Positions 3,849-55,301 of a stretch of 64,000 bases of DNA are shown here, piece by piece. The translations under genes were made by a program, and so were the position numbers. Position 1 is the first letter of the stretch, and each line of letters opens with the position of its first letter. Source of the stretch: an uncultured Gammaproteobacteria bacterium (GTDB lineage: Bacteria; Patescibacteriota; Microgenomatia; CAYQLK01); contig CAYUKQ010000002.1 in NCBI GenBank assembly GCA_964445355.1, positions 1,590 to 65,589 on the forward strand, given 5' to 3'. The notes under the pieces are model-generated. The model saw nothing but the letters and a program-made list of their open reading frames with translations. It did no database searches and was not told the DNA's origin.

Positions 3849-5481
3849 TTACTTTTTTAAACATAAGATAATAATATCAATTGTTTTTTTAGGATTGATA
3901 TTGCGTTTGGTTAGAATTTTTGACACCCCGCCGTCCTTGTACTGGGACGAAGTTTCGATTGGTTATAATAGCTATACTTTATCGCAGACATTTCGAGACG
4001 AACATGGTCAACTATTGCCAATAGAGGCGTTTACGGCATATGGGGATTATAAAGCTCCATTGTATATTTATTTAACCGCACCAATTGTCAAACTATTCAG
4101 TCTAAATTATCTAAGTGTCAGAGCAGTTTCAATTATTTCAGGTACTTTATTAATTTTTTTGGTTTTTTTAATTTCTAAAGAACTTTTCCCTAAAAATAAA
4201 CAAATTCCAGTATTTTCGTCGATTTTTATTGCAATTTCCCCTTGGAGTATCCAAATCTCCAGAGCAGCATTTGAAGCAAATTTAGGTGTTACATTGGGTT
4301 CTGCGGCGACGCTTATTTTTCTTAAGTCGTATAAAAATCCAAAATTTTTTTTTCTGTCAACAATACTATTTGTCCTCTCGATGTATAGCTTTAACGGCAC
4401 AAGGTACTTCTTACCATTTTGGATCGTTGGATTAGTATTTTGGTCGTACTTAAAAAATAAACACAAATTTATCAAGACAAAACACTTATTTCTGTCTAGT
4501 CTTATTGGTTTTATGATGATAATCCCATTAATAAGATTCGGATTAACTAATTCGGGACAACTGCGATATAACGAGGTAAATATTTTTTCAGACCCCAAGC
4601 CTGTACTAGAGTCAAACAGGCTACAAGAGGAGAATGGGTATTCACTGCTATCAAAAGTAATTTACAATCGCAGAGTTTTTCATGCCAAGAACTACATAAA
4701 GCACTATTTTGACAACTTCTCGTATAAGTATTTATTTGTAAGTGGAGACATTAATCCAAGATTTTCTTCTCAGCTAACTGGTCAGTTGTATATTATTGAG
4801 CTGATTCTTTTACCACTGGGTGTATATTTCGTATTTAAAAAAAATAGAAAAATATTTTATTTTCTATTTTTATGGGTTGTCATTTCGCCGGTTGCTGCAA
4901 GCGTAGCCAGGGAAACACCACATGCATTAAGAACTCTTCAGATGTTGCCCGCATTATCAATATTAAGTGCAAGCGGAATTGCCTATCTGGTAAATAAACA
5001 AAATAACAAAAAATTAAGGTGGGGGGCGTTATTTATTATTTTTTCAATGCTTGGGTTTCAATTTCTATTTTTCATTTCCAACTACTTTTTTAATTACTCA
5101 GCAAAATATGCGGACGACTGGCAGGATGGATATGCTCAATTGAACACGATACTAAGTAATCGGGAGTATGAAAACAAAAAAATTCTTATTACGGATCATT
5201 ATGGAAGAGCATATGCAAATATACTCTATTATCAAAAGTTTTCGCTTGATACGTATTTATCCACAAGAGATGCGTTTTCTGAGCCTTCAGGGCTTTGGAC
5301 AGTAAAAGGCTTTGGAAATTACAGTTTTAAACCTTCTGTTTCATGTGCAGATGCGTCAATTGCAGATTACATAATTGGTACACCCGACGATTTCGCTAAT
5401 ATTAAATTACAAAATGTTATTTTCAATAGTTTTGGCAAGCCGAAGTTTGTTATCATTAATTCCAATGAGTGTAAAAAATAA
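3835..5481 (+). CDS. GT-C glycosyltransferase, PMT_2/ArnT-like; tandem paralog of the previous gene
   Basis: Same architecture and a near-identical loop motif ('YWDEVSIGYNSYTL...RDEHGQLLP'). It overlaps the upstream paralog by 14 nt. Confidence 0.65.
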   Translation: MSKINYFFKHKIIISIVFLGLILRLVRIFDTPPSLYWDEVSIGYNSYTLSQTFRDEHGQLLPIEAFTAYGDYKAPLYIYLTAPIVKLFSLNYLSVRAVSIISGTLLIFLVFLISKELFPKNKQIPVFSSIFIAISPWSIQISRAAFEANLGVTLGSAATLIFLKSYKNPKFFFLSTILFVLSMYSFNGTRYFLPFWIVGLVFWSYLKNKHKFIKTKHLFLSSLIGFMMIIPLIRFGLTNSGQLRYNEVNIFSDPKPVLESNRLQEENGYSLLSKVIYNRRVFHAKNYIKHYFDNFSYKYLFVSGDINPRFSSQLTGQLYIIELILLPLGVYFVFKKNRKIFYFLFLWVVISPVAASVARETPHALRTLQMLPALSILSASGIAYLVNKQNNKKLRWGALFIIFSMLGFQFLFFISNYFFNYSAKYADDWQDGYAQLNTILSNREYENKKILITDHYGRAYANILYYQKFSLDTYLSTRDAFSEPSGLWTVKGFGNYSFKPSVSCADASIADYIIGTPDDFANIKLQNVIFNSFGKPKFVIINSNECKK

Positions 5482-6286
5482 TCAAACAAAAATTTCAGTC
5501 GCCATAGCCACCTTTAATGAGGAAAAAAACATTCGTTTTTGCCTCGACTCAATAAAAGGTTGGGCAGATGAAATAATAATTTTTGACGGATCTTCAACTG
5601 ATAAAACTGTAGAAATTGCCCGCGGCATGGGTGCAAAAGTGTTTATTGTTGATAATCCTCCCCATTTTCATACAAATAAACAAAAAGCCATAGATAAATG
5701 CAAGAATAATTGGATTTTTCAACTTGATGCAGATGAGGAATTGACCAGCAACTTAAAGGAAGAAATTATTCAAATAATTTCTGATCCAAACAATAAATTC
5801 CACGGCTATTATGTTCCGAGGAGGAATTATTTTTTAGCACATTGGATGAAAAAAACTGCTAACTACCCTGATCCAGTAATTAGACTATTCAAAAGAGGTT
5901 TTGCGAAAGTACCCGTAAAAAACACCCATGAACAAATTGAGATAGAGGGACAGGTGGGATGGCTAAAAAACGATATGCTTCACTACGGTGATGTTAGCTT
6001 TACAAGATATTTAATAAGAGCAAACCGTTACAGTACTATGGATGCTCGATACCTAAAACAGGACAAGGTTAATATATCACTTGGATTTTCGATCAAATAT
6101 CTTTTTCTTTATCCGATAAAAACATTTTTACTTCTATACGTCAGACACCAAGGTTTTCGTGATGGTATGGCCGGGTTTGCCTTTTCTTTGTATTCATCAA
6201 TACATTTTATTAATACGTATTTAAAATATTATGAATCAGCGAATCAAAATATTGATCGATCAGAGCCGCTTGATTACTGGGCATAA
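5465..6286 (+). CDS. GT2 polyprenyl-phosphate sugar synthase-like (GtrB/Ppm1/ArnC-like)
   Basis: GT2 start 'ISVAIATFNEEKNI...' followed by C-terminal TM helices, the GtrB/DPM1 layout. The start was chosen at the internal ATG at 5465 (MSVKNN...), because the track ORF from 5375 would overlap the upstream gene by about 100 nt. Confidence 0.55.
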   Translation: MSVKNNQTKISVAIATFNEEKNIRFCLDSIKGWADEIIIFDGSSTDKTVEIARGMGAKVFIVDNPPHFHTNKQKAIDKCKNNWIFQLDADEELTSNLKEEIIQIISDPNNKFHGYYVPRRNYFLAHWMKKTANYPDPVIRLFKRGFAKVPVKNTHEQIEIEGQVGWLKNDMLHYGDVSFTRYLIRANRYSTMDARYLKQDKVNISLGFSIKYLFLYPIKTFLLLYVRHQGFRDGMAGFAFSLYSSIHFINTYLKYYESANQNIDRSEPLDYWA

Positions 6287-7250
6287 AGCAAGAGGGTCAG
6301 GTACATATATAAATAACCTGATCAATTCACTTAGTGAGAATCGTGGTATTAAGCTAGTTGAGAACTATTCATCTAATCCTGATGTTGTTCATTTCCCATA
6401 TTTTGATCCATTTTTTTTAACTTTACCTAAAAAAATTTCCCCTCCGACCGTTATCACGGTGCATGATTTAATACCGATAGATTATCCAAAAATATTTCCT
6501 AAAGGTATTAAAGGTTGGTTAAGGTGGAAGATACAAAAAAGAAATTTACAGAATGCTGATGCGATCATTACTGATAGTATTTACTGCAGGCAGCGTATTC
6601 AGGATATTACTGGTATTGATAGTAAAAAAATTCATGTAATTCCACTGGCCGCAGATCCACAATTCAAACAGCTAAAAAATCAGACCTTAGATGAAATCAA
6701 AAAAAAGTATTCCTTACCTGAAAAATTCGTTCTATATGTCGGAGATGTTAACCCAAATAAAAACGTTAAAAGGCTTATTTTGGCTTCAAAAGATTTTAAA
6801 TTTAAGTTGTATTTAGCAGGGCGGGCATTTGGAGCGGAATCTGCAGAAGTAAAAGATATTAAGGCACTCGTCGAAAACAGCAATAATTGTTCGATCATTG
6901 GTGAAATTGAATCAAGTAATGACTTAGTCGCGATTTATAATCTAGCTCATCTTACTGTGGTTCCATCTTGGGAGGAGGGTTTTGGTTTCCCAATATTAGA
7001 ATCTATGGCTTGTGGTACGCCTGTAGCAACTTCTAACAGATCATGTTTGCCTGAGGTCGGTAGAGAGGCTGCAAAATATTTTGATCCTTATTCAGTTGAT
7101 GACATTGCAAGGACAGTAAATAAAATTTGTGTACTCTCTCAAAAAAAATATTCAGAATTAAAAAACAAATCGATTAATAATAGTAAAAAATTCACTTGGA
7201 AGAAAACTGCAAAATTAACCATTGATGTATACACACAGCTTAAAGATTAA
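6231..7250 (+). CDS. GT4-family glycosyltransferase
   Basis: GT-B fold with the C-terminal 'EGFGFPILESMACGTPV' E-x7-E motif. Confidence 0.75.
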   Translation: MNQRIKILIDQSRLITGHKARGSGTYINNLINSLSENRGIKLVENYSSNPDVVHFPYFDPFFLTLPKKISPPTVITVHDLIPIDYPKIFPKGIKGWLRWKIQKRNLQNADAIITDSIYCRQRIQDITGIDSKKIHVIPLAADPQFKQLKNQTLDEIKKKYSLPEKFVLYVGDVNPNKNVKRLILASKDFKFKLYLAGRAFGAESAEVKDIKALVENSNNCSIIGEIESSNDLVAIYNLAHLTVVPSWEEGFGFPILESMACGTPVATSNRSCLPEVGREAAKYFDPYSVDDIARTVNKICVLSQKKYSELKNKSINNSKKFTWKKTAKLTIDVYTQLKD

Positions 7251-8367
7251 AAAAAATGTTGACAAATATCGCTTTGTCATTCTGACTTTTCTAGTCTGGA
7301 AAATTACTTTGTCAGTATTTGGACTAATCATTATCCAATTTGTTGATTATCACCCTACCTTTCCCTACTACGAATCGTTAAAATCAAAGTATGATTTTTT
7401 ATACCTTTTTATATGGGGAGGTTTTGATGGCGTTCACTATTTAGACATTGCGCAAGATGGTTATACTAAACAGTTTACACAAGCTTTTTTCCCTTTCTAC
7501 CCATTATTAATTAGTTTTTTTTCATTCGGTTTTATTCCAAAATTGGTTGTAGGTATTTTAATTAACAATCTTGGATTATTTGTGGGGCTAATTTTTTTAC
7601 AGAATATAATCCAAAATAATTTTAAAAAAATTGATTATCGTTTTGTTATTTTGATATTTCTAGCATATCCTTTCTCCTTTTTCTTTAACGCTGTGTACAA
7701 TGAGGGAATATTTTTCGCACTTATATTAATTTGTTTTCAGTCTTATCAGTACAGAAGGACGTTAATGATGATATTAACTGGAATATTTGCTTGCACCACA
7801 AGATTGGCTGGAATATATCTAATTCCCTCACTTGCTGTTTTTACATTATTAGATCAAAAAAGAAAAAAAACTAGTTCGTTAATGGCAATTAGCTTTATAT
7901 CTTTTGGATTGATTATCTACATGATTTATCTGGAAATTAAATTTGGTGATTACCTATATTTCATTACTTCACAAAACTATTTTGGGAACGCAAGGAGTAG
8001 TGATTTAGTGCTATTGCCACAGGTAATTTATCGGTATATAAAAATTATACTAAGTATTTCAGTTACCAGTAATGCGTTTATCATTGCAATAACAGAATTT
8101 TTTGTTGCAATCGTATTTCTTATTTTACCGATAATTTTTCACAAAAAAATTCCAATCGGATATATTATTTTTTCATTATTAGTTGTAATTGTTCCCTCGC
8201 TAACTGGCACTTTTGGATCAATGCCAAGATACGCCCTAATGTCATTTCCAGTTTTTATATTAATTGGCTTTTTAAGTCAAAAATATAAAATGTTACTGAT
8301 TACCGTATTTGTAATTTTGCAATTATACTTTCTTTCATTATTTATCTCCGGCACGTTCGTATCATAA
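7222..8367 (+). CDS. PIG-V/Gpi18-like (GT76-like) GT-C mannosyltransferase family membrane protein
   Basis: Multi-TM protein. The motif 'FDGVHYLDIAQDGY...AFFPFYPLLI' resembles the conserved PIG-V/Mannosyl_trans2 signature. It has a paralog at 52504-53565. Confidence 0.5.
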   Translation: MMYTHSLKIKKNVDKYRFVILTFLVWKITLSVFGLIIIQFVDYHPTFPYYESLKSKYDFLYLFIWGGFDGVHYLDIAQDGYTKQFTQAFFPFYPLLISFFSFGFIPKLVVGILINNLGLFVGLIFLQNIIQNNFKKIDYRFVILIFLAYPFSFFFNAVYNEGIFFALILICFQSYQYRRTLMMILTGIFACTTRLAGIYLIPSLAVFTLLDQKRKKTSSLMAISFISFGLIIYMIYLEIKFGDYLYFITSQNYFGNARSSDLVLLPQVIYRYIKIILSISVTSNAFIIAITEFFVAIVFLILPIIFHKKIPIGYIIFSLLVVIVPSLTGTFGSMPRYALMSFPVFILIGFLSQKYKMLLITVFVILQLYFLSLFISGTFVS

Positions 8368-9803
8368 TGAAAAATCATAAAAAAATAATTGCAATATTAA
8401 TTCTAGCAGCTGTAATTCGTTTGCTCGGCCTTAATCAGAGCTTGTGGCATGATGAGGCAATCGCTGCTCAAACAGTAATAAATTTTAGTATAAAAGAGTA
8501 TTTTACGAATTTTTTACCAGGTGATTTTCACCCACCGATATATTTTTTTATACAGAAAATATTTTATTTTATCTTTGGTAGCTCCGAATTTTCCTTTAGG
8601 CTTCCAGCCTTACTTTCTGGTGTGCTAACTGTCTATTTTGTTTATTTGATTTCAATAATTACCATCCAAAATAAAAAATACATTTTTTGGCCGACAATAC
8701 TTTGTGCTCTCTCTCCAATATTAATTCAATATTCGTTTGAAGCCAGACCATATTCACTTACTACACTCGTTGTCACGATTAATATTTATCTTTTGTTAAG
8801 AATAAAAAATAAATTTTCAAAATTAACATTTATTACTTACCTTACTAGTTGTGTTGTTTTAATTTATTTAAATTATTTATCATATTTTTATTTGATTATT
8901 TCTTCAGCATTTATGATAAATATTTTAATCAGACAAAAAGAAATTTTTAAAAAGTCAACTATTTTTTTTAGTCTAATAGCAATTACCATATCTAGTGGAA
9001 TTGCTCCAATCTTAAATCAGCAGCTGGCAGTAGGTTTCGGAATTTCTGACACAGCTTCTGGGTGGCAAAAAATAATTGGTAGCCAAAATATTTTTAAAAA
9101 TATCGTTCAATTTTGCATCAAAATTATTTCAGGTCACGTAGACTTTGATTACTCAAAATTGTCAATTTTTATTTCCGGCATTGGTGCAATATTACTTTTA
9201 ACTATCTTGATGCTCTCGCTAATTAAACGTGGTAAAGAGTTTTTTTTGACCGCTATTTTTTTAATGGTTCTTTTACTGATTCAAATAGTATCAATGACGA
9301 TTCCAATATATTCCTATTTTAGGTTGTTATATTTAGTGCCACTAATTTTAATTTCAATTTCTGTTGCTATTCAACATTATTCTAGGGCAAGGTACGTATT
9401 TTATTATTTTTTTATTAGTAGTTTGATTTTTAATTTTATGTATTTTTTAAATCCAGTCTTTTGGCGCGAGAATTGGAAAGGGGCTGCCGAATATACCAAA
9501 TATTTAACAGCTAATTATCAAAACAGTATTGTTGTTTTTCCAACGGCAATTCCATATGAGGCATATTCATACTATAATCATTCGCCGGCCATAGGAATAG
9601 GAAAGGACTTTATTGTTACTCAATTAACACAAGAACAAGAATTAGAATTAAAAAAATATCAATATTTAATTGTTTACGACTATTTGGCACAGCTAACCGA
9701 TCCAAAGGGAATTACAAAAAACTTTCTTAATAATAATTATAATGAGTTGACCGGATATAGTTTTAATAAAATAGGGAGCATTAGGTTATACAGTCTGAAA
9801 TGA
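8367..9803 (+). CDS. GT-C glycosyltransferase, PMT_2/ArnT-like
   Basis: Multi-TM protein of 478 aa with an N-terminal loop 'LWHDEAIAAQT' and the ArnT-like topology. Confidence 0.6.
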   Translation: MKNHKKIIAILILAAVIRLLGLNQSLWHDEAIAAQTVINFSIKEYFTNFLPGDFHPPIYFFIQKIFYFIFGSSEFSFRLPALLSGVLTVYFVYLISIITIQNKKYIFWPTILCALSPILIQYSFEARPYSLTTLVVTINIYLLLRIKNKFSKLTFITYLTSCVVLIYLNYLSYFYLIISSAFMINILIRQKEIFKKSTIFFSLIAITISSGIAPILNQQLAVGFGISDTASGWQKIIGSQNIFKNIVQFCIKIISGHVDFDYSKLSIFISGIGAILLLTILMLSLIKRGKEFFLTAIFLMVLLLIQIVSMTIPIYSYFRLLYLVPLILISISVAIQHYSRARYVFYYFFISSLIFNFMYFLNPVFWRENWKGAAEYTKYLTANYQNSIVVFPTAIPYEAYSYYNHSPAIGIGKDFIVTQLTQEQELELKKYQYLIVYDYLAQLTDPKGITKNFLNNNYNELTGYSFNKIGSIRLYSLK

Positions 9804-10894
9804 AAACAATTGCAATTGACATATCACAAGTTATTTATGGCACAGGTGTGTCTAATTTGACTATGGATTTGGTTGATGCAGTTATTAAAAATGACCCAAC
9901 TAATAAATACAAATTGTTTGGTTCAAGCCTAAGAGGTTATTTTAAACTTCGCAAATTTGCATCAAAGTATCCTAAAGCAAAGGCAATAATTCTTCCCTTT
10001 CCAATTTCATTAATCAAGATTATCTTTAATAATCTTAATATTCCCGTAGAGGGTATGTGTCCAGGCATAGACGTATTTCATTGTTCGGATTGGGTTACTC
10101 CGCGTGGAATAAAAACAAAAATATTAGTACCTGTTTACGATCTGACTACAAAAATTCAACCACAAGATCATTTGCAGAGCACAATAAGTTCGCACGATAC
10201 GCGACTTCAGAGGGCAGTCAGATATGCTGATTTTATAATTTTTCTTTCTCGATCGACTAAAGAAGATTTTAAAAGATATTACAAATTTACTTCTCAAAAA
10301 ACTTCAATCATATATCCAAGTACCAATCTGCCACAAATTAAACCAGGCAATATTTCTCAAACATTAAAAAAATACAAAATCATCAAAAAATTTATACTCA
10401 GTGTTTCTACACTTCAACCAAGGAAGAACCTAGAAGGATTGGTTAAGGCCTTTGAAAAATTTAACCAAGAAAAAAAATATCAACTTGTAATCGTTGGTCC
10501 AAAAGGATGGGGAACAATCAATATAAATCAAAGCGAAGATATAATACAAACTGGTTTTATAAGCAACTTAGAGCTGGTTAATTTGTATAGTAAGGCTGAT
10601 GTATTTGTTTACCCCTCATTTTACGAAGGGTTTGGTCTGCCGATAATTGAAGCTATGTCTTTTGGTCTGCCAGTAATTTGTTCTGATACCTCGTCAATGC
10701 CTGAGGCTGGAGGTAAGGCAGCGATATATTTCAATCCTTCCGATATAAATGAGTTAGTAGATCGTCTTATTAAAACTACGAATATGAATGTAAATGAACA
10801 GATCGCAATCAGACATGAGTCCATAGTACAGGCTAAAAAATTTTCATGGGAAAATAGTGCAAAACAATTAATATCAATTTATGAAACACTTTGA
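9800..10894 (+). CDS. GT4-family glycosyltransferase
   Basis: 'EGFGLPIIEAMSFGLPVICSD' E-x7-E motif. Overlaps its neighbor by 4 nt. Confidence 0.75.
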   Translation: MKTIAIDISQVIYGTGVSNLTMDLVDAVIKNDPTNKYKLFGSSLRGYFKLRKFASKYPKAKAIILPFPISLIKIIFNNLNIPVEGMCPGIDVFHCSDWVTPRGIKTKILVPVYDLTTKIQPQDHLQSTISSHDTRLQRAVRYADFIIFLSRSTKEDFKRYYKFTSQKTSIIYPSTNLPQIKPGNISQTLKKYKIIKKFILSVSTLQPRKNLEGLVKAFEKFNQEKKYQLVIVGPKGWGTININQSEDIIQTGFISNLELVNLYSKADVFVYPSFYEGFGLPIIEAMSFGLPVICSDTSSMPEAGGKAAIYFNPSDINELVDRLIKTTNMNVNEQIAIRHESIVQAKKFSWENSAKQLISIYETL

Positions 10895-11987: not shown

Positions 11988-11992
11988 GGTAT

Positions 11993-12595: not shown

Positions 12596-12602
12596 ATTAA
12601 GT

Positions 12603-15098: not shown

Positions 15099-15099
15099 A

Positions 15100-16533: not shown

Positions 16534-17768
16534 AAGTATTATTAATTTCACCATATATTCCATACCCCCCAATCACTGGAGGGAAAGTAAGGGTTTATAA
16601 CTTTTTGAGAAAACTTAGCGAAAAACACGAAATAGTATTGATCTGTTTATTAAAAAATACGGACGAGTTTGAAGACGTCAAGGTGTTAGAAAAACAAGGT
16701 TTCAAAATATACCCTGTATTGCGTCGTAAAGCCTGGTCAATTCAAAATTTAGTTAGAACTTTATTTACCAAATACTCATTTTTAACAGTTGTTAATAATT
16801 TTTCTGCCGAAACTGAAAATTTAATTCTTGAGGTTATAAAAAAAGAAAAGCCAGACTTGATACACTTAGAGACATTTTATATGGCTCAAAGTTTACTTGC
16901 GGTCAGGGACAAGATAAAAATACCGATACTACTCGCGAAGGTCGATGTTGAAGCACAGGTTTATTTTAGAAATGCTCAACAAAAGAAAAACCCAATACTT
17001 AAATTAATGGGGTATATCGATGCAAGAAAAATGTTGAGTTATGAGGTTCAGGTCTGTAAGTATTTTGACAAAGTAACTTTTGCCAGCGAAGTGGATCGTA
17101 CCCTTCTAACCTCCTATCTTAAGAAGCGTAAAATCAATGTATCAACCGACTTGATACCCAATGGGGTAGATACAAAGCATTACGTGCCGACAAAAACTAA
17201 AAAATACTCAAAACCTACGGTTGTTTTTCTTGGAAACTTTCGCTATTTTGCCAATACTGACGCAGCATTTTATTTTGTAAGAAATATCTGGCCAATTATT
17301 ACCTCTAAAATAGATGCTCACCTTTACATTGTTGGACCTCTTTTGCCGAAAGGAATTCAACGTTTGCTTAGTAATGATGTAGCCAAGCTAAACACCGAAA
17401 ACATTACTGTTACAGGGTTTGTTGAAGAGGATGTTAAAAAAAGTATTTTATCCAAATCTTGGATTTCGGTAGCTCCGATTCGAATTGGGTCCGGCACTAA
17501 GCTAAAAATTCTTGAATCTATGGCAATTGGTACTCCGGTTATTGCTACACCGGTTGGAATTGAGGGGATTGATGCTATTGATAATAGTAGTGTGATGATC
17601 GGAGAATCACCTCAGCAAGTGGCTAACAAAATAATCAAACTACTTAAAGATCAACAATTAAGAAGAAAAATTTCAAAAAATGCACGCAAGCTTGTCGAGG
17701 ATGTTTATGAATGGGACGTTATTTGCTCTAGACTAGATCAAATATACCGCGACTTAACAAAAAAATAA
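16530..17768 (+). CDS. GT4-family glycosyltransferase
   Basis: GT-B fold, 'MKVLLISPYIPYPPITGG' N-terminus, C-terminal 'ESMAIGTPVIATPVG'. Confidence 0.75.
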   Translation: MKVLLISPYIPYPPITGGKVRVYNFLRKLSEKHEIVLICLLKNTDEFEDVKVLEKQGFKIYPVLRRKAWSIQNLVRTLFTKYSFLTVVNNFSAETENLILEVIKKEKPDLIHLETFYMAQSLLAVRDKIKIPILLAKVDVEAQVYFRNAQQKKNPILKLMGYIDARKMLSYEVQVCKYFDKVTFASEVDRTLLTSYLKKRKINVSTDLIPNGVDTKHYVPTKTKKYSKPTVVFLGNFRYFANTDAAFYFVRNIWPIITSKIDAHLYIVGPLLPKGIQRLLSNDVAKLNTENITVTGFVEEDVKKSILSKSWISVAPIRIGSGTKLKILESMAIGTPVIATPVGIEGIDAIDNSSVMIGESPQQVANKIIKLLKDQQLRRKISKNARKLVEDVYEWDVICSRLDQIYRDLTKK

Positions 17769-17769
17769 T

Positions 17770-18684
17770 ATGCAGACAAAGCCAACAGTTGATGTAATTA
17801 TTGTTAATTATAATGCTGGTACTTATTTAAAATCCTGCATTTTAAGTCTAAAAACTTGTTTGAAAAACAACTTCAAACTTAATTGCATAATAGTCGATAA
17901 TGCTTCAATCGACGACAGTATTAGCCAAGTACAGGCAGTGAAACTACCCTGGCTAAAAATAATTAAGAATTCGCAGAATGTTGGTTTTGCTGCCGGGTGC
18001 AATATTGGTATAAAACGATCTAAAGGAAGTTATGTTCTGCTACTAAACCCTGATACAAAAGTATCAAAAGACTCAATTAGTAAAATGGTTGATTTTCTAA
18101 AAATTCATCCAAAAGCTGGAATTGTTTCTGCAAAATTAGTTCTTTCTGATGGGAAAATTGACCCCGCTTCACACAGGGGGTTTCCAACTCCATGGGCATC
18201 ATTTACCTATTTCACCGGCCTGGAAAAATTTTTTCCTAAAAATCCAAAATTTAGTCAGTACCACCAGTGGTATAAGCCACTGGATAAGGTGCACGAAATA
18301 GATTCACCTTCCGGCGCATTCATGTTAATCAAAAAAGAAGTGTTCAACAAAATTGGTTTACTTGACGAAGATTTTTTTATGTACGCAGAAGATATTGATT
18401 TTTCATATCGAACTAAGCAGTCAGGTTTTCAAATCTTTTATAATCCGTCCTCGACAGTTTTACACACCAAAGGAATATCTTCTGGAATTAAAAAGCATTC
18501 TGAAAAAAAGTCAAAAGCAAGTGTTGAAACTAGAATTAGAACAACCAGACATTTTTATGAAACTATGAAGATATTTTATTTAAAACATTATTCCAATAAG
18601 TATCCTCATTTATTAAAAAATTTAGTCTTTATTTTTATCGATTTAAAAAAAACCATAAAAATAATTCGTTTAAAATATTTATAG
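17770..18684 (+). CDS. GT2-family glycosyltransferase
   Basis: 'VDVIIVNYNAGTYLKSCI...VDNASIDDS' motif set. Confidence 0.7.
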   Translation: MQTKPTVDVIIVNYNAGTYLKSCILSLKTCLKNNFKLNCIIVDNASIDDSISQVQAVKLPWLKIIKNSQNVGFAAGCNIGIKRSKGSYVLLLNPDTKVSKDSISKMVDFLKIHPKAGIVSAKLVLSDGKIDPASHRGFPTPWASFTYFTGLEKFFPKNPKFSQYHQWYKPLDKVHEIDSPSGAFMLIKKEVFNKIGLLDEDFFMYAEDIDFSYRTKQSGFQIFYNPSSTVLHTKGISSGIKKHSEKKSKASVETRIRTTRHFYETMKIFYLKHYSNKYPHLLKNLVFIFIDLKKTIKIIRLKYL

Positions 18685-18686
18685 AT

Positions 18687-19790
18687 ATGCGTATTTTTAT
18701 AGATGCGCGATTGTATGGCTCGGGCCATACAGGAATAGGGCGTTATAGTCAAAATTTAATTGACAATTTAATTGACATCAATAAAATTCACGACTTAATA
18801 TTATTGACGCATCAAAATGCATCAATCTCTTCTAAATCTAATTTGACGGTTATTAAAACATCAATCGGTCATTATGGATTTTCTGAACAGTTTAAACTAC
18901 TTAAACTAATCTCTTCTCACAACCCCGACCTTGTTCATTTTACGCATTTTAATCATCCGGTTCTTTACAATAAGCCATTTGTGGTCACAATTCATGACTT
19001 GATCAAGTCCGATTATAAAGACTACTCCTCATCAACCAGAACAAAAACCTATTACGAGATCAAACATTTTTTTTACCAAAAGGTAATTAAACATGCGGTA
19101 TTTAAATCACGCGCAATAATTACCCCATCAAACTTTTCTAAAACACGAATAATTTCTCATTTTCCAAACGTTGATAAAAAAAAGATAAACGTAATATATG
19201 AAGGTGTTGATGAATTTAAACAAATTAGTACAAAAAAAATACTCGATCAAAATAATTACTCAAAATATGGAAATTACTGCTTATACGTAGGTAATAGTTA
19301 TCCCTACAAAAATCTTAAGCTTGTTATTGAAGCAATAAAGCAAATTCCTCAACTCAATTTAGTTGTAGTCAGTAAGTCAAGCAAAGATCTCGATCTGATA
19401 AAAGCAAATACACAGCACAATAATCAATTTATTTTTCTTGAAAACGTTACGGATGCGGAACTTTCCTCGCTATATAAATATTCAAAATTTTTTATCTTTC
19501 CCTCAAAATCCGAAGGATTTGGTATCCCAGGGTTAGAAGCAATGGCCATGAGTACGCCGGTCATTTCGTCAAACGCCGGACCAATGCCTGAAATATATGG
19601 GTCTGCAGCTTTATATTTCGACCCTGATAATGTGGATGACTTAACTAAGGTAGTAAACAATTTATTACTAAACTATCAATCAGAATATATTCGACTGACT
19701 AGGCTTGGGAAATCGCAAATAAAGAAATATTCATGGTTAAGAATGGCTAAAGACACCCTTAAAATATATGAAAATTGCCTTAGTCTTTGA
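18687..19790 (+). CDS. GT4-family glycosyltransferase
   Basis: 'MRIFIDARLYGSGHTGIGRY' N-terminus and 'EGFGIPGLEAMAMSTPVISS' motif. Confidence 0.75.
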   Translation: MRIFIDARLYGSGHTGIGRYSQNLIDNLIDINKIHDLILLTHQNASISSKSNLTVIKTSIGHYGFSEQFKLLKLISSHNPDLVHFTHFNHPVLYNKPFVVTIHDLIKSDYKDYSSSTRTKTYYEIKHFFYQKVIKHAVFKSRAIITPSNFSKTRIISHFPNVDKKKINVIYEGVDEFKQISTKKILDQNNYSKYGNYCLYVGNSYPYKNLKLVIEAIKQIPQLNLVVVSKSSKDLDLIKANTQHNNQFIFLENVTDAELSSLYKYSKFFIFPSKSEGFGIPGLEAMAMSTPVISSNAGPMPEIYGSAALYFDPDNVDDLTKVVNNLLLNYQSEYIRLTRLGKSQIKKYSWLRMAKDTLKIYENCLSL

Positions 19791-20847
19791 TCCAATTACT
19801 CAAAACGGTGGAGCTGAAAAACTGTTGTGGTCCCTGGCTGATAGCTTGCCCATCGGTTCAGTTTTTACGGCCGTCGCCAATCCAGAAATTGTCCCAAAAA
19901 AATTATTACCAAGGATAATAACCTCTTGGATTCAAAATCTTCCGCTTGCCTACAAAAATCCTAAACCATACTTACCGTTTTTTCCATTAGCATACGAATC
20001 GTTTGATTTTAGTGATTTTGACTGTGTTATTTCGATTACGACTTTATTCGCGAAGGCTGTAATTACTCAGCCACACACACTTCATATTGGATATATCAAC
20101 TCCCCTCCGAGATTCCTATACTCCAAAAAAAACTTAGAGAAATACATCAACTCTCAATCTTTTGGATTAGCTCTTAATCCATTTTTTAACTGGTTAAAAA
20201 AATATGATCAAATCGCAACTAGACGTCCAGACATCTTAATAGCAAATTCCCATAACATTCAGCGTAAAATCCGCGACATTTATCATCTCGACAGTCAAGT
20301 AGTTTACCCGTTTGCTGATGATTTTTATTTTTCCTATGGATCAAAAACAGATCGATTAGATAATTTTGTGCTGGTTTCTAGACTTGAAAGATGGAAAAAC
20401 ATTGACTATGTCATCGAGGCTTTTAACCATCTGCCAGGAAAAAAATTAATTGTTGTCGGGGTTGGCAGTGATGGTAATCGTCTAAGGAAAAAAGCTGCTT
20501 CAAATATTTCCTTCACAGGCTGGATTGATTCTGCTTCTGTGGCCAAAATTGTTTCTAGTTCACAGGCCTTGATAATGCCACAGAATGAAGACTTCGGAAT
20601 TACATCAATCGAAGCACAAGCACTCCGAACGCCGGTGATCGCATTTGGTCAAGGTGGGGCAGTTGAAACGGTGATAAACAACCAGACAGGTATACTTTTT
20701 CCATCGCAAACCGTTGATTCGCTTACCCAAGCAGTTAACTCATTTACTCAAAAGAATTTCAGCGCTGACAAACTTTATCAAAATGCGCTAAAATACCGCG
20801 AGAAAGACTTTATTCAAAATATTTCAAAAATTATCTATGGGAAGTGA
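19768..20847 (+). CDS. GT4-family glycosyltransferase
   Basis: 'MKIALVFDPITQNGGAEKLL' GT4 N-terminus. Overlaps its neighbor by 23 nt. Confidence 0.7.
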   Translation: MKIALVFDPITQNGGAEKLLWSLADSLPIGSVFTAVANPEIVPKKLLPRIITSWIQNLPLAYKNPKPYLPFFPLAYESFDFSDFDCVISITTLFAKAVITQPHTLHIGYINSPPRFLYSKKNLEKYINSQSFGLALNPFFNWLKKYDQIATRRPDILIANSHNIQRKIRDIYHLDSQVVYPFADDFYFSYGSKTDRLDNFVLVSRLERWKNIDYVIEAFNHLPGKKLIVVGVGSDGNRLRKKAASNISFTGWIDSASVAKIVSSSQALIMPQNEDFGITSIEAQALRTPVIAFGQGGAVETVINNQTGILFPSQTVDSLTQAVNSFTQKNFSADKLYQNALKYREKDFIQNISKIIYGK

Positions 20848-21940
20848 TCAGTCGGTTAAAATAGCAATTTTTTGCGGGGGAAGTGGCTCAAGAATGTGGC
20901 CCGCATCTCGTTCTGACAAACCAAAACAGTTCCAGCCATTAATTGGAGGCAAAAGCACGTTTGAAAAATTAGTTGTGATTTTGGAAAAAGAGTTTGGCTC
21001 CGCAAATATTTTCCCTGTTGCCAGAAGAGAATTTGTTGGTCATATTGTTTCTCAGGCGCCTCATATTCCCCTAGAGAACATCATTATCGAGCCTGAAGGG
21101 CGAGACACAATGGCCGCCATTGGATTTGCAGCAATGGTTCTTGATACAAAATTCAATAATCCAACTGTAATTAGTCTTTGGAGTGATCATCTGATAAAAA
21201 ATGAGACAAACTTTCTTAAATCTTTGAGAAAGGCAGCAAAGGTCAGTGCAAATACATCCAAAATTGTCGAGTTGGGTGTTCGTGCAACATTTCCGAGCAC
21301 TCAGTTAGGCTATATAAAAATCGGCAAAATGCTAGAAAAGGAGGATGGTCTTGGCTTGTTCGAGTTTATTGCTCAGATTGAGAAGCCTAACCTTGAAAAG
21401 GCACAGGAATTCTTGGAATCATGGGAATATTTATGGCACCTAGGTTATTCAGTCTGGAATACGAAAACCCTGCTTGGTTATTATGAACAATTTGCTCCGA
21501 CAACTTACAAAACGCTACAAAAAATTTCTCAGCTAATTTTGAGCGGTGATAATTCAAGTAAAAGTATTAAGGATTTATTCTCTACGATCGACAAAACGTC
21601 GATTGATTATGCAATTTACGAAAAGCTAGGGGCTACCGATCGTTTAGTAATCTCTGCTGATCTGGGTTGGAGTGATGTCGGCACATGGGATGTATTAAAA
21701 GATGAGTTAAGCAAAAAACCAGAAGATAATGTCTCAACAAATAATTCAATCACTGTCGAATCAAGTGATACGCTACTATTCTCGACTAATCAGCGAAAAA
21801 TGCTGGTTGCCGTGGGAGTAAAAGGTGTAGTCGTCGTCGACACAGACGACGCTATACTTGTCGTATCCAAAGACAACAGCGGAAAAGTTAAGGACGCTGT
21901 GGTAAAACTTAAAGAAGAAGGGCATGAAGACTATCTTTAA
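20837..21940 (+). CDS. Mannose-1-phosphate guanylyltransferase-like (ManC-type NTP transferase, no PMI domain)
   Basis: 'IAIFCGGSGSRMWPASRSDKPKQF' is the nucleotidyltransferase G-loop of ManC/GMP family enzymes. At 367 aa it lacks the C-terminal cupin/PMI domain. Confidence 0.7.
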   Translation: MGSDQSVKIAIFCGGSGSRMWPASRSDKPKQFQPLIGGKSTFEKLVVILEKEFGSANIFPVARREFVGHIVSQAPHIPLENIIIEPEGRDTMAAIGFAAMVLDTKFNNPTVISLWSDHLIKNETNFLKSLRKAAKVSANTSKIVELGVRATFPSTQLGYIKIGKMLEKEDGLGLFEFIAQIEKPNLEKAQEFLESWEYLWHLGYSVWNTKTLLGYYEQFAPTTYKTLQKISQLILSGDNSSKSIKDLFSTIDKTSIDYAIYEKLGATDRLVISADLGWSDVGTWDVLKDELSKKPEDNVSTNNSITVESSDTLLFSTNQRKMLVAVGVKGVVVVDTDDAILVVSKDNSGKVKDAVVKLKEEGHEDYL

Positions 21941-21943
21941 TAA

Positions 21944-22582
21944 ATGTTATACGATTTTTTAAAACGTACTCTAGACATCATCGGCTCACTGTTCGGTATC
22001 ATAATTTTAGGTTTAATATTTCCATTTATTGCTGTAGCTGTTAAGCAATCAAGCCCTGGCCCAATTTTCGCCGATGTTCCCAAGCGAAGTGGAAAAGATG
22101 GTAAATCTTTCAAGATGTACAAATTCAGATCAATGATAAAAGATGCGCATTTGTTGTTGCAAAGCGATCCTAAGTTCAAAAAATTATACGAAGAATATAA
22201 AAAAAATTCGTACAAGCTCTCACACGATCCTCGGGTTACACCAGTTGGACATTTTATCCGGAAAACCAGTATTGATGAACTACCTCAATTCATTAATGTC
22301 CTAAAGGGTGAAATGAGTCTAGTTGGTCCGAGGGCGTATTATCCCGATGAGTTAATCAATCAACAAAAAGCTTACCCTGAGACAAAGAAATACGTCAAAA
22401 CCTTACTCACAGCCAAACCTGGACTGACTGGTCCATGGCAGGTATCAGGGCGCAGTGATATTTCTTTTGAAAAGCGAGTTAAGCTTGATGCATCCTATGC
22501 AAAAAAAAGATCAATCCTGTATGATTTAAAGATCATTATTCTCACGATTCCTGCCCTATTGTCTCAGAAAGGTGCAGTCTAG
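21944..22582 (+). CDS. Polyprenyl-phosphate sugar-1-phosphate transferase, small PglC/WbaP-C-terminal type (initiating enzyme)
   Basis: One N-terminal TM helix, then 'KMYKFRSM...' and '...IDELPQFINVLKGEMSLVGPRA', the bacterial sugar transferase signature. Confidence 0.8.
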   Translation: MLYDFLKRTLDIIGSLFGIIILGLIFPFIAVAVKQSSPGPIFADVPKRSGKDGKSFKMYKFRSMIKDAHLLLQSDPKFKKLYEEYKKNSYKLSHDPRVTPVGHFIRKTSIDELPQFINVLKGEMSLVGPRAYYPDELINQQKAYPETKKYVKTLLTAKPGLTGPWQVSGRSDISFEKRVKLDASYAKKRSILYDLKIIILTIPALLSQKGAV

Positions 22583-27503: not shown

Positions 27504-27533
27504 TTGACAATAATTCTTTTTATGGTGAATAAT
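27504..27533 (+). promoter_or_regulatory. Putative sigma70-type promoter of the dcw operon (TTGACA-18-AATAAT)
   Basis: TTGACA at 27504-27509 and AATAAT at 27528-27533, about 45 nt upstream of the mraZ ATG. Confidence 0.4.
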
Positions 27534-54308: not shown

Positions 54309-54374
54309 CTATCAAAAATTATACCTTATTTTTTGCTATAAGCTCTTTATGTATCCTTCAAACTATTCATGGTT

Positions 54375-54446
54375 AGATAATCTGAGCCGAAGGTGGGAAT
54401 CGAACCCACGACCTACTGTTTACGAAACAGCCGCTCTACCACTGAG
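54375..54446 (-). tRNA. tRNA-Thr (anticodon CGU)
   Basis: The reverse complement folds as a cloverleaf: acceptor GCCGAAG/CTTCGGC, D-arm GCTC-AGTGGTA-GAGC, anticodon arm GCTGT-TTCGTAA-ACAGT, T-arm GTGGG-TTCGATT-CCCAC. CCA is not encoded. Confidence 0.8.
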
Positions 54447-55272: not shown

Positions 55273-55301
55273 CTAGTAATCGCTGTGTATATCCAAAAAA
55301 T

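What the first reader, a model, noticed from the sequence alone, without database searches (positions are those of the whole stretch)
5465..22582. Inferred polyprenyl-phosphate-mannose-dependent pathway: ManC, GtrB/Ppm-like GT2, PMT/PIG-V-like GT-C transferases
One operon encodes a GDP-mannose-forming guanylyltransferase (20837-21940). It also encodes a GT2 with C-terminal TM helices in the GtrB/Dpm1/Ppm1 arrangement (5465-6286) and a PglC-type primer. Alongside these are GT-C enzymes from families that use polyprenyl-P-mannose donors in characterized systems. Examples are PMT protein O-mannosyltransferases, mycobacterial lipomannan enzymes and eukaryotic PIG-V. This co-occurrence gives the logic of a lipid-linked mannose donor feeding multiple periplasmic mannosyltransferases, similar to actinobacterial LM/LAM or protein O-mannosylation. 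To my knowledge this has not been described in this kind of organism.
Basis: inference. Interest (0 to 1): 0.75.

Follow-up and report, generated by a model that had tools for sequence, protein, structure and literature searches.

The report
Giant CPR surface-glycan operon, synthase misassigned
This is part of a roughly 37-kb cell-surface sugar-building operon of a tiny candidate-phyla-radiation (Microgenomates-type) bacterium. [quoted passage not shown]

Summary
These are ManC (20837-21940), a PglC-type primer (21944-22582), four PMT_2 GT-C enzymes, a YfhO GT-C and a PIG-V/Gpi18-like GT-C (7222-8367). They sit in one tightly packed + strand operon.

The key claim fails. The GT2 at 5465-6286 has a DXD motif, but it is not GtrB/Dpm1/Ppm1-like. 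Its closest relatives by sequence and predicted fold are GmaR and SunS/ThuS. Profile alignments to GtrB, ArnC and a DPMS homologue stop at residue 103-133. Its C-terminal helices are far less hydrophobic than GtrB/ArnC membrane helices.

The pathway logic survives through other genes. Contigs that overlap the window at 100% identity, or are colinear with it through a relative, extend the operon about 15 kb upstream. That stretch encodes a full-length Dol-P-Man-synthase homologue (5mlz, E=2.5e-48, with the GtrA/DPMS membrane domain). It also encodes a second Dpm1-like GT2, an MptA-like GT-C, more PMT_2 genes, Gmd and Wzx.

In 42 related loci this GT2 family sits after PMT_2 arrays (41/42) and before a GT4 (41/42). 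A separate Dpm1-like GT2 is present in 34/42.

PPM-type genes were already annotated in Saccharibacteria.

The parts
1..1314 (+). C-terminal part of a 772-aa YfhO-family GT-C; the gene starts upstream of the window
   Evidence: Pfam YfhO 60.5 bits. The frame is open from base 1. The full gene is seen in L008, which is 100% identical to window 1-2834.
1298..2227 (+). GT2 (Glyco_tranf_2_3 type) with one C-terminal hydrophobic helix; a generic Leloir GT, not GtrB-like
   Evidence: ArnC E=0.097, N-terminal part only.
2205..3848 (+). PMT_2 GT-C (a), with a WDE motif after TM1
   Evidence: PMT_2 46.9 bits and PMT 25.9 bits. Motif seen.
3835..5481 (+). PMT_2 GT-C (b), a paralogue of (a) at 31% identity, with a WDE motif
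   Evidence: PMT_2 32.5 bits. Paralogy and motif.
5465..6286 (+). GT2 of the GmaR/SunS/ThuS-like (LgtF/WaaE-type) family, with DAD at 'QLDADEE' and three weakly hydrophobic C-terminal helices.
6231..7250 (+). GT4, the conserved downstream partner of the GT2 (41/42 related loci)
   Evidence: Glycos_transf_1 91.1 bits. Synteny.
7222..8367 (+). PIG-V/Gpi18-like (GT76-type) GT-C membrane protein
   Evidence: No Pfam hit for the protein itself. Most listed homologues carry PF04188. AF2 pLDDT 93. The high-probability Foldseek matches are GT-C-fold proteins.
8367..9803 (+). PMT_2 GT-C (c), with an HDE motif after TM1
   Evidence: PMT_2 38 bits. Weak hit to the MT1671 mannosyltransferase model. Motif.
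9800..10894 (+). GT4
10881..11987 (+). GT4
11993..12595 (+). WcaF-like hexapeptide O-acetyltransferase
   Evidence: PRK10502 E=9.9e-29.
12603..13517 (+). GT2 (generic; one C-terminal hydrophobic helix)
13518..15098 (+). Wzy_C-family polymerase/ligase
   Evidence: Wzy_C 54 bits.
15055..16533 (+). PMT_2 GT-C (d). The true start is probably the ATG near 15100, because the homologous gene is called at 477 aa.
   Evidence: PMT_2 49.1 bits..
16530..17768 (+). GT4 (stp1-like)
   Evidence: TIGR03087 E=4.3e-62.
17770..18684 (+). GT2 (rhamnosyltransferase-like)
18687..19790 (+). GT4
19768..20847 (+). GT4
20837..21940 (+). ManC, a mannose-1-phosphate guanylyltransferase without a PMI domain
21944..22582 (+). 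Small monotopic PglC-type phosphoglycosyltransferase (initiating enzyme)
   Evidence: Bac_transf 197.9 bits..
22629..24518 (+). DUF4012 membrane-anchored protein, 46 nt downstream of the primer gene. It may be part of the system; its role is unknown.

Best explanation
The region is the 3' two-thirds of a very large cell-envelope glycan operon of a Microgenomates-type CPR bacterium, about 32 genes over about 37.6 kb.

Inferred mechanism:
1. ManC makes GDP-mannose.
2. A PglC-type phosphoglycosyltransferase primes a polyprenyl phosphate.
3. Cytoplasmic Leloir enzymes build a lipid-linked glycan. These are seven GT4 and four GT2 enzymes in the window, more upstream, and an acetyltransferase.
4. 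Wzx (upstream) flips the glycan and a Wzy_C protein polymerises or ligates it.
5. On the outer face, a battery of GT-C enzymes adds sugars from polyprenyl-phosphate-monosaccharide donors. The window encodes four PMT_2, one YfhO and one PIG-V-like. Upstream there are two more PMT_2, an MptA-like, and two weakly assigned GT-C-like membrane proteins.

The donor synthases are most likely the two GT2 genes upstream of the window. One is a 383-aa protein homologous over its whole length to archaeal Dol-P-Man synthase, including its GtrA/DPMS membrane domain. The other is a 242-aa TM-less Dpm1-like GT2. The lipid-linked sugar is probably, but not demonstrably, mannose.

The GT2 at 5465-6286 is not that synthase. 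It is an inverting GT-A enzyme of the GmaR/SunS/LgtF type. It probably sits peripherally on the membrane and, together with its invariably adjacent GT4, makes or extends the cytoplasmic acceptor that the GT-C enzymes later decorate.

Shown: the family assignments, fold, gene order, conserved synteny and the upstream DPMS homologue. Inferred: physical contiguity across a gap of about 256 nt, donor sugar identity, acceptor identity and the order of steps.
For: - Family assignments.
- The GT2 is not GtrB/Dpm1-like. By PDB sequence search the best matches are GmaR (1.2e-14), ThuS and SunS, with DPMS at only E=0.25 over residues 8-59.
- The AF2 model has pLDDT 88. Foldseek puts SunS/ThuS on top at TMq 0.51-0.57. 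ArnC, GtrB and DPMS reach TMq 0.38-0.44, within or below the range of unrelated GT-A enzymes.
- hhalign of the family profile against GtrB aligns residues 9-103, against ArnC 9-133, and against the in-operon DPMS homologue 9-110.
- Hydrophobicity controls.
- Upstream extension. L008 is 100% identical to window 1-2834 and adds 2 kb. L010, from sample SRR14932482, is 100% identical to window 715-4714. L098, from the same sample, and L099 are colinear with relative L016 at 76-78% nucleotide identity, the same distance as window versus L016 (74%).
- L098 genes. The 383-aa GT2 matches DPMS 5mlz at E=2.5e-48 over residues 1-379 versus 23-373, with GtrA_DPMS_TM at 47 bits. Its top NCBIfam hits are AglJ, PgfS, Dol-P-hexose transferase, PpgS and ArnC.
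- The 242-aa GT2 has the Dol-P-hexose transferase model as its top hit and also matches PgfS, ArnC, AglJ and PpgS, interleaved with generic GT2 models. The 366-aa protein hits MptA TIGR03459 at E=6.8e-13. The first ORF hits Gmd at E=1.9e-68.
- Conserved cassette in 42 loci of at least 12 kb: PMT_2 in 41, almost always as an array directly upstream; GT4 in 41, almost always next downstream; PIG-V-like in 25; a separate Dpm1/ArnC-like GT2 in 34.
Against: - Contiguity of L098/L099 with the window rests on synteny with a relative. It also rests on sample co-occurrence, consecutive contig numbers and equal divergence. A gap of about 256 nt is not bridged by sequence.
- The window's own NCBI contig (75 kb) could not be fetched.
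- Sugar specificity of DPMS-family enzymes cannot be read from homology. Relatives make Dol-P-Glc, polyprenyl-P-GalNAc, Und-P-Ara4FN and others.
- No ManB or ManA gene is in the window.
- The PMT_2 proteins have no detectable single-sequence similarity to any solved GT-C, so their donors and acceptors are unknown.
- The role proposed for the GT2/GT4 pair is inferred from synteny alone.
Confidence: 0.62

Rival explanations
1. One reading: the GT2 at 5465-6286 is itself the GtrB/Ppm1-type polyprenyl-phosphate mannose synthase that feeds the GT-C enzymes.
For: - It has a DXD motif and hydrophobic C-terminal helices.
- It is translationally coupled to a PMT_2 gene, and in 41/42 related loci it accompanies PMT_2 arrays, almost always directly after them.
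- In this lineage no Dpm1-like GT2 lies between Wzx and the primer gene.
Against: - No similarity to GtrB, ArnC or DPMS extends past the nucleotide-binding half.
- Its structural neighbours are SunS/ThuS.
- The C-terminal helices are not TM-like when compared with the controls.
- 34/42 loci carry a separate true Dpm1/ArnC-like GT2 alongside it.
- This lineage has a full-length DPMS homologue upstream.
Confidence: 0.06
2. The GT-C stage is real but not mannose-based. The DPMS-like enzymes make polyprenyl-P-glucose, -GlcNAc or another sugar. ManC serves only the cytoplasmic GT4 mannosyltransferases and the Gmd branch (GDP-6-deoxyhexoses).
For: - PMT_2 and YfhO families include users of Und-P-Ara4N, Und-P-GlcNAc, Und-P-GalA and similar donors (established knowledge).
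- The top NCBIfam hits of the upstream synthases are hexose, GalNAc and Ara4FN enzymes, none above its cut-off.
- Seven GT4 genes in the window, one more upstream, and an upstream Gmd can consume GDP-Man.
Against: - The best full-length solved match of the 383-aa synthase is a Dol-P-Man synthase.
- MptA-like and PIG-V-like GT-C families are known only as mannosyltransferases (established knowledge).
- ManC is the only nucleotide-sugar pyrophosphorylase found in the operon.
Confidence: 0.25
3. The GT2 at 5465-6286 is a cytoplasmic protein or peptide glycosyltransferase like its nearest solved relatives (GmaR O-GlcNAcylates flagellin; SunS/ThuS S-glycosylate peptides). It would prime a secreted protein, such as a pilin or S-layer protein, that the GT-C enzymes then extend.
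For: Its closest sequence and fold matches are GmaR, SunS and ThuS. PMT-type GT-C enzymes are protein glycosyltransferases in other organisms.
Against: - It lacks the TPR/substrate-binding domain of SunS and GmaR, being only 273 aa.
- One source annotates a 50%-identical homologue as an LPS-core glucosyltransferase.
- No obvious substrate peptide gene is adjacent.
- The similarity is confined to the GT-A domain and TM-scores are only about 0.55.
Confidence: 0.1

Closest known systems
Corynebacterineae lipomannan/LAM pathway (ManC, PimA/PimB' GT4, Ppm1, PimE, MptA/MptB GT-C)
   Same: GDP-mannose supply, cytoplasmic GT4 steps, a DPMS/Ppm1-type GT2 and several GT-C enzymes including an MptA-like one, with extracytoplasmic extension from a lipid-linked monosaccharide.
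   Different: - No GT87 (PimE) hit, no phosphatidylinositol genes and no Lnt-like Ppm2/D1 partner were seen.
- The synthase has the archaeal-type fused GtrA/DPMS membrane domain.
- The operon also has a PglC-type primer, Wzx and Wzy_C, so the acceptor is more likely a polyprenyl-PP-linked glycan than a PI anchor.
- The organism is a CPR bacterium.
Actinobacterial and eukaryotic protein O-mannosylation (Ppm1/Dpm1 plus Pmt, GT39)
   Same: PMT/PMT_2 family GT-C enzymes with a DE motif in the first outer loop, together with a DPMS homologue and ManC.
   Different: - The PMT_2 proteins match only the broad PF13231 model. Just one also reaches the PMT model, weakly.
- They lack MIR domains and have no detectable similarity to solved Pmt1/2/4 by sequence.
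- Six PMT_2 paralogues in one operon is unlike the single Pmt of Actinobacteria.
Gram-positive three-component glycosylation (CsbB/GtcA/YfhO; PgfS/PgfM1/PgfM2; YkcC/YkcB)
   Same: A YfhO or PMT_2 GT-C is paired with a polyprenyl-P-sugar-forming GT2. The upstream synthases hit PgfS, and the YfhO weakly hits PgfM1/2.
   Different: The synthase is DPMS-type rather than two-TM GtrB-type. No separate GtrA/GtcA flippase gene was seen. The system is embedded in a far larger operon.
SunS/ThuS S-glycosyltransferases, GmaR, and LgtF/WaaE LPS-core glucosyltransferases (for the GT2 at 5465-6286)
   Same: They are the best sequence and fold matches of the GT-A domain and share the DXD motif. The short helical C-terminus with the R-H-x-G-F-x-D-G motif resembles the LgtF/WaaE type (from memory; one JGI annotation supports it).
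   Different: The GT2 has no TPR or anti-repressor domain. The organism has no LPS. The family is syntenic with GT-C arrays, which is not known for those enzymes.
Wzx/Wzy-dependent heteropolysaccharide (O-antigen/capsule-type) pathway
   Same: A PglC-type primer, many GT4/GT2 enzymes, an acetyltransferase, Wzx (upstream) and a Wzy_C protein.
   Different: An exceptional number (about 11) of GT-C-type genes is interleaved with it, plus two polyprenyl-P-sugar synthase homologues.

Membership tests
GtrB/ArnC/Dpm1/Ppm1 polyprenyl-phosphate GT2 (tested on 5465-6286) | GT-A domain with a DXD motif | tested here: met
   The DAD motif in 'QLDADEE' is invariant in 34 homologues and aligns with the DXD of GtrB, ArnC and DPMS. 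This feature is shared by all GT2 enzymes.
GtrB/ArnC/Dpm1/Ppm1 polyprenyl-phosphate GT2 (tested on 5465-6286) | Homology through the acceptor half and interface helices of the catalytic domain | tested here: not met
   hhalign alignments end at query residue 103 (GtrB), 133 (ArnC) and 110 (in-operon DPMS homologue). DPMS 5mlz gives E=0.25 over residues 8-59. No ArnC/GtrB-type NCBIfam hit; AglJ and Dol-P-hexose hits cover only the N-terminal ~90 residues. Positive controls reach ArnC residues 176-236.
GtrB/ArnC/Dpm1/Ppm1 polyprenyl-phosphate GT2 (tested on 5465-6286) | Two (GtrB/ArnC) or four (DPMS) C-terminal transmembrane helices, or a TM-less Dpm1 catalytic core | tested here: not met
   KD peaks are 1.38 and 0.93 against 2.0-2.6 in GtrB/ArnC. 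Eisenberg mean hydrophobicity is 0.43 and 0.23 against 0.79-0.86. The protein is not a Dpm1-type core either.
GtrB/ArnC/Dpm1/Ppm1 polyprenyl-phosphate GT2 (tested on 5465-6286) | Closest structural neighbours are polyprenyl-phosphate GTs | tested here: not met
   The Foldseek top six are SunS/ThuS (TMq 0.51-0.57). ArnC is at rank 13, GtrB at 26 and DPMS at 48, with TMq 0.38-0.44.
Dol-P-Man synthase type (GT2 + GtrA/DPMS TM domain), tested on the upstream gene L098:513-1664 | Full-length similarity to a characterised DPMS, including the four-helix membrane domain and DXD | tested here: met
   5mlz E=2.5e-48, residues 1-379 versus 23-373, with DAD aligned. PF00535 98.7 bits and PF04138 47.2 bits. 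Donor sugar was not tested.
Dol-P-Man synthase type, tested on the upstream gene L098:513-1664 | Physically part of the same operon as the window genes | tested here: inconclusive
   The chain L098/L099, a gap of about 256 nt, L008 and the window is supported by colinearity with L016, the same sample, equal divergence and 100% overlaps. The gap itself is not sequenced in the data held.
ManC (mannose-1-phosphate guanylyltransferase) | NTP_transferase domain plus ManC-type beta-helix, and closer to GMP than to RmlA/GalU | tested here: met
   E=1.7e-71; below the equivalog cut-off, the PMI half of the 467-position model being unmatched; 2x5s E=1.3e-44; only GMP-type chains listed at E<=1e-3.
PMT_2 / GT39-GT83-type GT-C | Pfam PF13231 above the gathering score, multi-pass membrane protein | tested here: met
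   46.9, 32.5, 38.0 and 49.1 bits against a cut-off of 26.1. Many predicted hydrophobic segments.
PMT_2 / GT39-GT83-type GT-C | Acidic (DE) motif in the first extracytoplasmic loop | tested here: met
   WDE, WDE and HDE follow TM1 in three of the four; the fourth has QAD (by inspection).
PMT_2 / GT39-GT83-type GT-C | Uses polyprenyl-P-mannose specifically | not testable with these tools
   The family includes users of other lipid-linked sugars. There were no PDB sequence matches.
PIG-V/Gpi18 (GT76, PF04188), tested on 7222-8367 | Match to PF04188 | tested here: inconclusive
   The protein itself gives no hit even at E<=1. Most of the 120 listed homologues (33-54% identical) carry PF04188, and several are named 'Gpi18-like mannosyltransferase' by JGI.
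PIG-V/Gpi18 (GT76, PF04188), tested on 7222-8367 | GT-C fold | tested here: met
   AF2 pLDDT 93.4, pTM 0.92. High-probability Foldseek matches are STT3, AftB, GPI-MT-I, Pmt4, ArnT and ALG3/9/12, with TMq 0.41-0.53.
GT87 (PimE-type) | Match to the GT87 Pfam model | tested here: not met
   No such hit for any ORF scanned.
PglC-type small phosphoglycosyltransferase | Bac_transf domain in a protein of about 200 aa with one N-terminal hydrophobic segment | tested here: met
   197.9 bits, 212 aa, hydrophobic segment at residues 8-38.

The most novel reading that the evidence does not exclude
Microgenomates-type CPR bacteria do not make their own lipids and have genomes of about 1 Mb. In this reading they devote a widely conserved cassette to building a lipomannan- or mannoprotein-like surface glycoconjugate. 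The cassette is [PMT_2]n, a SunS/LgtF-like GT2, a GT4, a PIG-V-like GT-C, Wzx and a Dpm1-like GT2. The SunS-like GT2 and the GT4 would make a cytoplasmic primer on a scavenged lipid or a protein. Arrays of GT-C enzymes would extend it outside the cell from polyprenyl-P-mannose. That would be a counterpart, outside Actinobacteria, of the LM/LAM and O-mannosylation systems, and a candidate for the host-contact surface.
Probability: 0.3. Interest if true: 0.65.

Novelty: new variant of a known kind. Interest (0 to 1): 0.42.

Why it matters
The composition of the CPR/Patescibacteria cell surface is largely unknown, and it is the interface with their hosts. This lineage appears to spend about 37 kb on one operon with about 11 GT-C-type enzymes and two polyprenyl-P-sugar synthase homologues.

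The core cassette recurs in nearly all related loci examined. That gives concrete, testable candidates for a lipid-linked-sugar-dependent surface glycan in these organisms. The candidates are the upstream 383-aa DPMS homologue, the PMT_2 arrays and the conserved GT2-GT4 pair.

The result also corrects a plausible but wrong annotation. Not every small GT2 next to a GT-C gene is a GtrB/Ppm1.

Tried and rejected
- A genome-contig scan with the YfhO fragment found only distant Planctomycetota, Chloroflexi and similar loci, not the window's own genome. The upstream region had to be reached indirectly.
- A fold search against afdb50 was unavailable.
- PDB sequence searches with two PMT_2 proteins returned nothing.
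- phmmer of E. coli GtrB, ArnC, ArnT and GtrA against all window ORFs found no GtrB-like gene and no GtrA-like flippase gene.
- Orthologues of the Daviesbacteria Dpm1-like GT2s, Wzx and LPG_synthase_TM protein are absent from the window.
- I considered the other GT2 genes (1298-2227, 12603-13517, 17770-18684, 50471-51346) as alternative synthases. They were rejected because they give only N-terminal similarity and generic EPS/rhamnosyltransferase-type hits.
- The two upstream GT2 genes in relative L016 are a generic GT2 and a second GmaR/SunS-like paralogue, not DPMS-like.
- The terminator and promoter scan was uninformative apart from a strong promoter-like site before mraZ.
- Rfam found only three tRNAs.
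- Literature searches for Patescibacteria plus dolichyl-phosphate-mannose, for Microgenomates plus glycosylation, and for 'Gpi18-like mannosyltransferase' returned nothing.

Full report
**Context**

The window is AT-rich, 29-39% G+C over the region of interest. After the glycan genes it carries DUF4012, RecO, a class II tRNA synthetase and a complete dcw cluster from MraZ to FtsZ, then CTP synthase and a class I aminoacyl-tRNA synthetase. Named homologues of its proteins come mostly from Daviesbacteria, Curtissbacteria, Gottesmanbacteria, Woesebacteria, Levybacteria and 'Microgenomates group' MAGs. The organism is therefore a Microgenomates-type member of the CPR/Patescibacteria. No name could be retrieved for the window's own contig.

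**Checking the observation**

From position 1 to 22582 there are 20 + strand genes that overlap or are separated by at most 7 nt. Pfam and NCBIfam assign them as follows:

| Coordinates | Assignment |
|---|---|
| <1-1314 | YfhO GT-C (runs off the window start) |
| 1298-2227 | GT2 |
| 2205-3848 | PMT_2 GT-C |
| 3835-5481 | PMT_2 GT-C |
| 6231-7250 | GT4 |
| 7222-8367 | 10-helix membrane protein with no direct Pfam hit |
| 8367-9803 | PMT_2 GT-C |
| 9800-10894 | GT4 |
| 10881-11987 | GT4 |
| 11993-12595 | WcaF-like acetyltransferase |
| 12603-13517 | GT2 |
| 13518-15098 | Wzy_C |
| 15055-16533 | PMT_2 GT-C |
| 16530-17768 | GT4 |
| 17770-18684 | GT2 |
| 18687-19790 | GT4 |
| 19768-20847 | GT4 |
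| 20837-21940 | ManC |
| 21944-22582 | 212-aa Bac_transf (PglC-type) primer |

ManC is unambiguous. NCBIfam GMP_PMI gives E=1.7e-71 over the guanylyltransferase part, and the ManC beta-helix domain is present. The best solved relative is Thermotoga GMP 2x5s at E=1.3e-44, with no thymidylyl- or uridylyltransferase listed.

- Most of its 120 listed homologues carry PF04188, and some are named Gpi18-like mannosyltransferase.
- Its AF2 model is confident, with pLDDT 93.
- Its high-probability PDB matches are all GT-C-fold membrane proteins: STT3, AftB, GPI-MT-I, Pmt4, ArnT and ALG3/9/12.

Three of the four PMT_2 proteins have a (W/H)DE motif just after the first membrane helix.

**The GT2 at 5465-6286**

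The family alignment supports the ATG at 5465 as the start. It shows an invariant DADE motif, an invariant HEQ, and a C-terminal R-H-x-G-F-x-D-G motif. Several lines of evidence show it is not a GtrB/ArnC/Dpm1/Ppm1-type enzyme.

1. Against all PDB sequences its best matches are GmaR (1.2e-14, residues 10-177), ThuS and SunS. The Dol-P-Man synthase 5mlz reaches only E=0.25 over residues 8-59, and GtrB and ArnC are not listed. NCBIfam's top hit is SunS. AglJ and a Dol-P-hexose transferase model match only the N-terminal 90 or so residues, and no ArnC model hits.
2. The family profile aligns to E. coli GtrB (YfdH) only over residues 9-103. It aligns to ArnC over 9-133, and to the DPMS homologue of the same operon over 9-110. 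These stretches cover only the nucleotide-binding half common to all GT2 enzymes.
3. The AF2 model (pLDDT 88) has three C-terminal helices. Its nearest solved folds are SunS/ThuS at TMq 0.51-0.57. ArnC, GtrB and DPMS appear at ranks 13-48 with TMq 0.38-0.44, within or below the range of SpsA, TarS and chondroitin polymerase.
4. Its C-terminal helices have Kyte-Doolittle maxima of 1.38 and 0.93, and Eisenberg means of 0.43 and 0.23. The E. coli GtrB and ArnC membrane helices give 2.0-2.6 and 0.79-0.86 with the same scripts.
5. One source annotates a 50%-identical homologue as '(heptosyl)LPS beta-1,4-glucosyltransferase'. That fits my recollection that the R-x-G-F-x-D-G C-terminus is typical of the LgtF/WaaE group. 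I did not test that membership.

No other ORF in the 64-kb window resembles GtrB, ArnC, GtrA or Dpm1 either.

**Related loci**

The GT2 family has more than 4,000 relatives. In 42 loci of at least 12 kb, 38 from metagenomes and 4 from assemblies, I classified neighbouring ORFs with profiles and reference sequences:

| Neighbour of the GT2 | Loci out of 42 |
|---|---|
| PMT_2-type GT-C genes, almost always an array of 2-7 directly upstream | 41 |
| GT4, almost always the next or next-but-one gene downstream | 41 |
| PIG-V-like GT-C, usually after the GT4 | 25 |
| Wzx | 15 |
| Separate GT2 similar to ArnC/GtrB/Dpm1 into the acceptor half | 34 |

The separate Dpm1-like ORFs number 47. Of these, 27 are hit directly by E. 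coli ArnC or GtrB as far as residue 150 or beyond, and they lack predicted TM helices. One Daviesbacteria example matches 5mlz at E=7e-11 over residues 4-203 and lies next to an LPG_synthase_TM protein.

The SunS-like GT2 is thus a conserved partner of GT-C arrays, but it coexists with a genuine Dpm1-like enzyme. That argues against it being the synthase.

**Upstream of the window**

A close relative, L016, has a GT2 85% identical to the window's and is colinear with the window at 74% nucleotide identity. It shows Wzx, GT2 (291 aa), GT2 (265 aa), GT4 and YfhO before the window's first genes. The 265-aa protein is another GmaR/SunS-like paralogue.

For the window's own lineage:
- L008 is 100% identical to window 1-2834 and extends it by 2,025 nt, covering the GT4 and the full 772-aa YfhO.
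- L010, from run SRR14932482, is 100% identical to window 715-4714.
- From the same run, contig L098 and the 99.95%-identical L099 carry a Wzx 86% identical to that of L016.
- L098 and L099 align to L016 at 76-78% nucleotide identity, the same distance as the window itself. The alignment ends about 256 nt before L008 begins, in L016 coordinates.
- L098 and the window-identical contig L100 have consecutive numbers in that assembly, which is weak support.

I therefore infer, but have not shown base by base, that L098 lies immediately upstream of the window. Window coordinate is approximately L098 coordinate minus 15,052.

L098 encodes the following genes, all on the same strand and tightly packed:

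| L098 coordinates | Assignment |
|---|---|
| 2-505 | 3' half of Gmd (TIGR01472, E=1.9e-68) |
| 513-1664 | 383-aa GT2 with a GtrA/DPMS membrane domain |
| 1619-3196 | PMT_2 |
| 3223-3951 | 242-aa TM-less GT2 |
| 3956-5056 | 366-aa protein hitting MptA (TIGR03459, E=6.8e-13; precomputed PF26314 MptA_B_family) |
| 5053-6561 | PMT_2 |
| 6577-8205 | 542-aa protein with a weak YfhO hit |
| 8205-9902 | PF10131 (PTPS_related) membrane protein |
| 9889-11361 | Wzx |

The 383-aa protein matches Pyrococcus Dol-P-Man synthase 5mlz over its whole length at E=2.5e-48, residues 1-379 versus 23-373, with the DAD motif aligned. Its best NCBIfam hits are AglJ, PgfS, Dol-P-hexose transferase, PpgS and ArnC.

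The 242-aa GT2 has the Dol-P-hexose transferase model as its top NCBIfam hit, and PgfS, ArnC, AglJ and PpgS are also among its hits, alongside generic GT2 models.

It lies about 13.4-14.5 kb before window position 1.

**Most likely mechanism**

1. ManC provides GDP-mannose. Gmd diverts part of it to 6-deoxyhexoses.
2. The PglC-type enzyme primes a polyprenyl phosphate.
3. GT4 and GT2 enzymes and the acetyltransferase build a lipid-linked repeat on the cytoplasmic face.
4. Wzx flips it and Wzy_C polymerises or ligates it.
5. The DPMS-like enzymes charge polyprenyl phosphate with a monosaccharide, probably mannose.
6. About eleven GT-C-type proteins transfer that sugar on the outer face to the glycan, to a glycolipid or to proteins.

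The SunS/LgtF-like GT2 and its GT4 partner most likely make or extend the acceptor at the inner face.

Family membership, fold, gene order and conserved synteny are shown. Contiguity across the 256-nt gap, the sugar, the acceptors and the order of steps are inferred.

**Comparison with known systems and novelty**

The system works like the actinobacterial PPM-dependent pathways (LM/LAM and protein O-mannosylation). It also resembles the Gram-positive GtrB-like/GT-C three-component systems, here grafted onto a Wzx/Wzy-type assembly line.

It differs in four ways:
- the archaeal-type DPMS architecture of the synthase;
- the very large number of GT-C paralogues;
- the absence of GT87 and PI-anchor genes;
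- the conserved, unexplained SunS-like GT2-GT4 pair.

At annotation level, PPM-dependent GT87 and Dol-P-Man synthase genes were already reported in a Saccharibacterium (PMC6031116). A PPM pathway is also drawn in a figure for TM7x and its host (PMC10768705). The idea is therefore not new for CPR as a whole. I found no description of the Microgenomates cassette.

I rate it a new variant of a known kind and of moderate interest.

Noticed in passing
window 50471-53565: A second small glycan cluster: GT2 (50471-51346), Wzy_C (51288-52517), and a paralogue of the PIG-V-like GT-C (52504-53565). The paralogue is 28% identical to 7222-8367 and has no Pfam hit of its own.
   Followed up: partly
window 22629-24518: A DUF4012 protein with an N-terminal hydrophobic segment lies 46 nt after the primer gene, followed closely by RecO. 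Its role is unknown, and it may belong to the glycan system.
   Followed up: no
window 53586-56276 (- strand): Three tRNA genes (54385-54456, 55305-55375, 56202-56276) are interleaved with genes for probable secreted proteins. These are a protein with Big/Glucodextranase_B repeats, a Peptidase_C39_2 protein and a LysM protein.
   Followed up: no
window 56000-64000: G+C rises to 0.45-0.49, against 0.29-0.39 in the glycan operon. ORF 61793-63187 (464 aa) has no Pfam family. No rRNA was detected.
   Followed up: no
window 36811-37971 and 47174-48235: There are two FtsW/RodA-family genes, one inside the dcw cluster and one after the class I aminoacyl-tRNA synthetase gene (44353-47163). Strong sigma-70-like promoter match (TTGACA-18-AATAAT) at 27504-27533, just upstream of mraZ.
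   Followed up: no
L004 4544-8162 and L005 1-1210 (Daviesbacteria): A compact CRISPR-Cas locus (Cas1, Cas2, Cas4 and a Cas12f1-like TNB protein) lies between the PMT_2 genes and the GT-C/GT2/GT4 module of the homologous cassette.
   Followed up: no
L007 13504-13872: A 122-aa EamA-like (weak) four-helix protein lies between the GT4 and Wzx in one related cassette. It could be an ArnE/F-type polyprenyl-P-sugar flippase. No counterpart was found in the window.
   Followed up: no
L006 10764-12332, L007 10815-12377 and 15 of 42 related loci: A 520-aa membrane protein with no Pfam family often lies directly after, or in a few loci directly before, the SunS-like GT2 in related cassettes. It is absent from the window.
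   Followed up: partly
window 5375-5464: The ORF of the GT2 is open from a TTG at 5375, and one Logan gene call gives 284 aa. The extra N-terminal residues are hydrophobic but are not conserved in homologues, so the ATG at 5465 is the likely start.
   Followed up: yes
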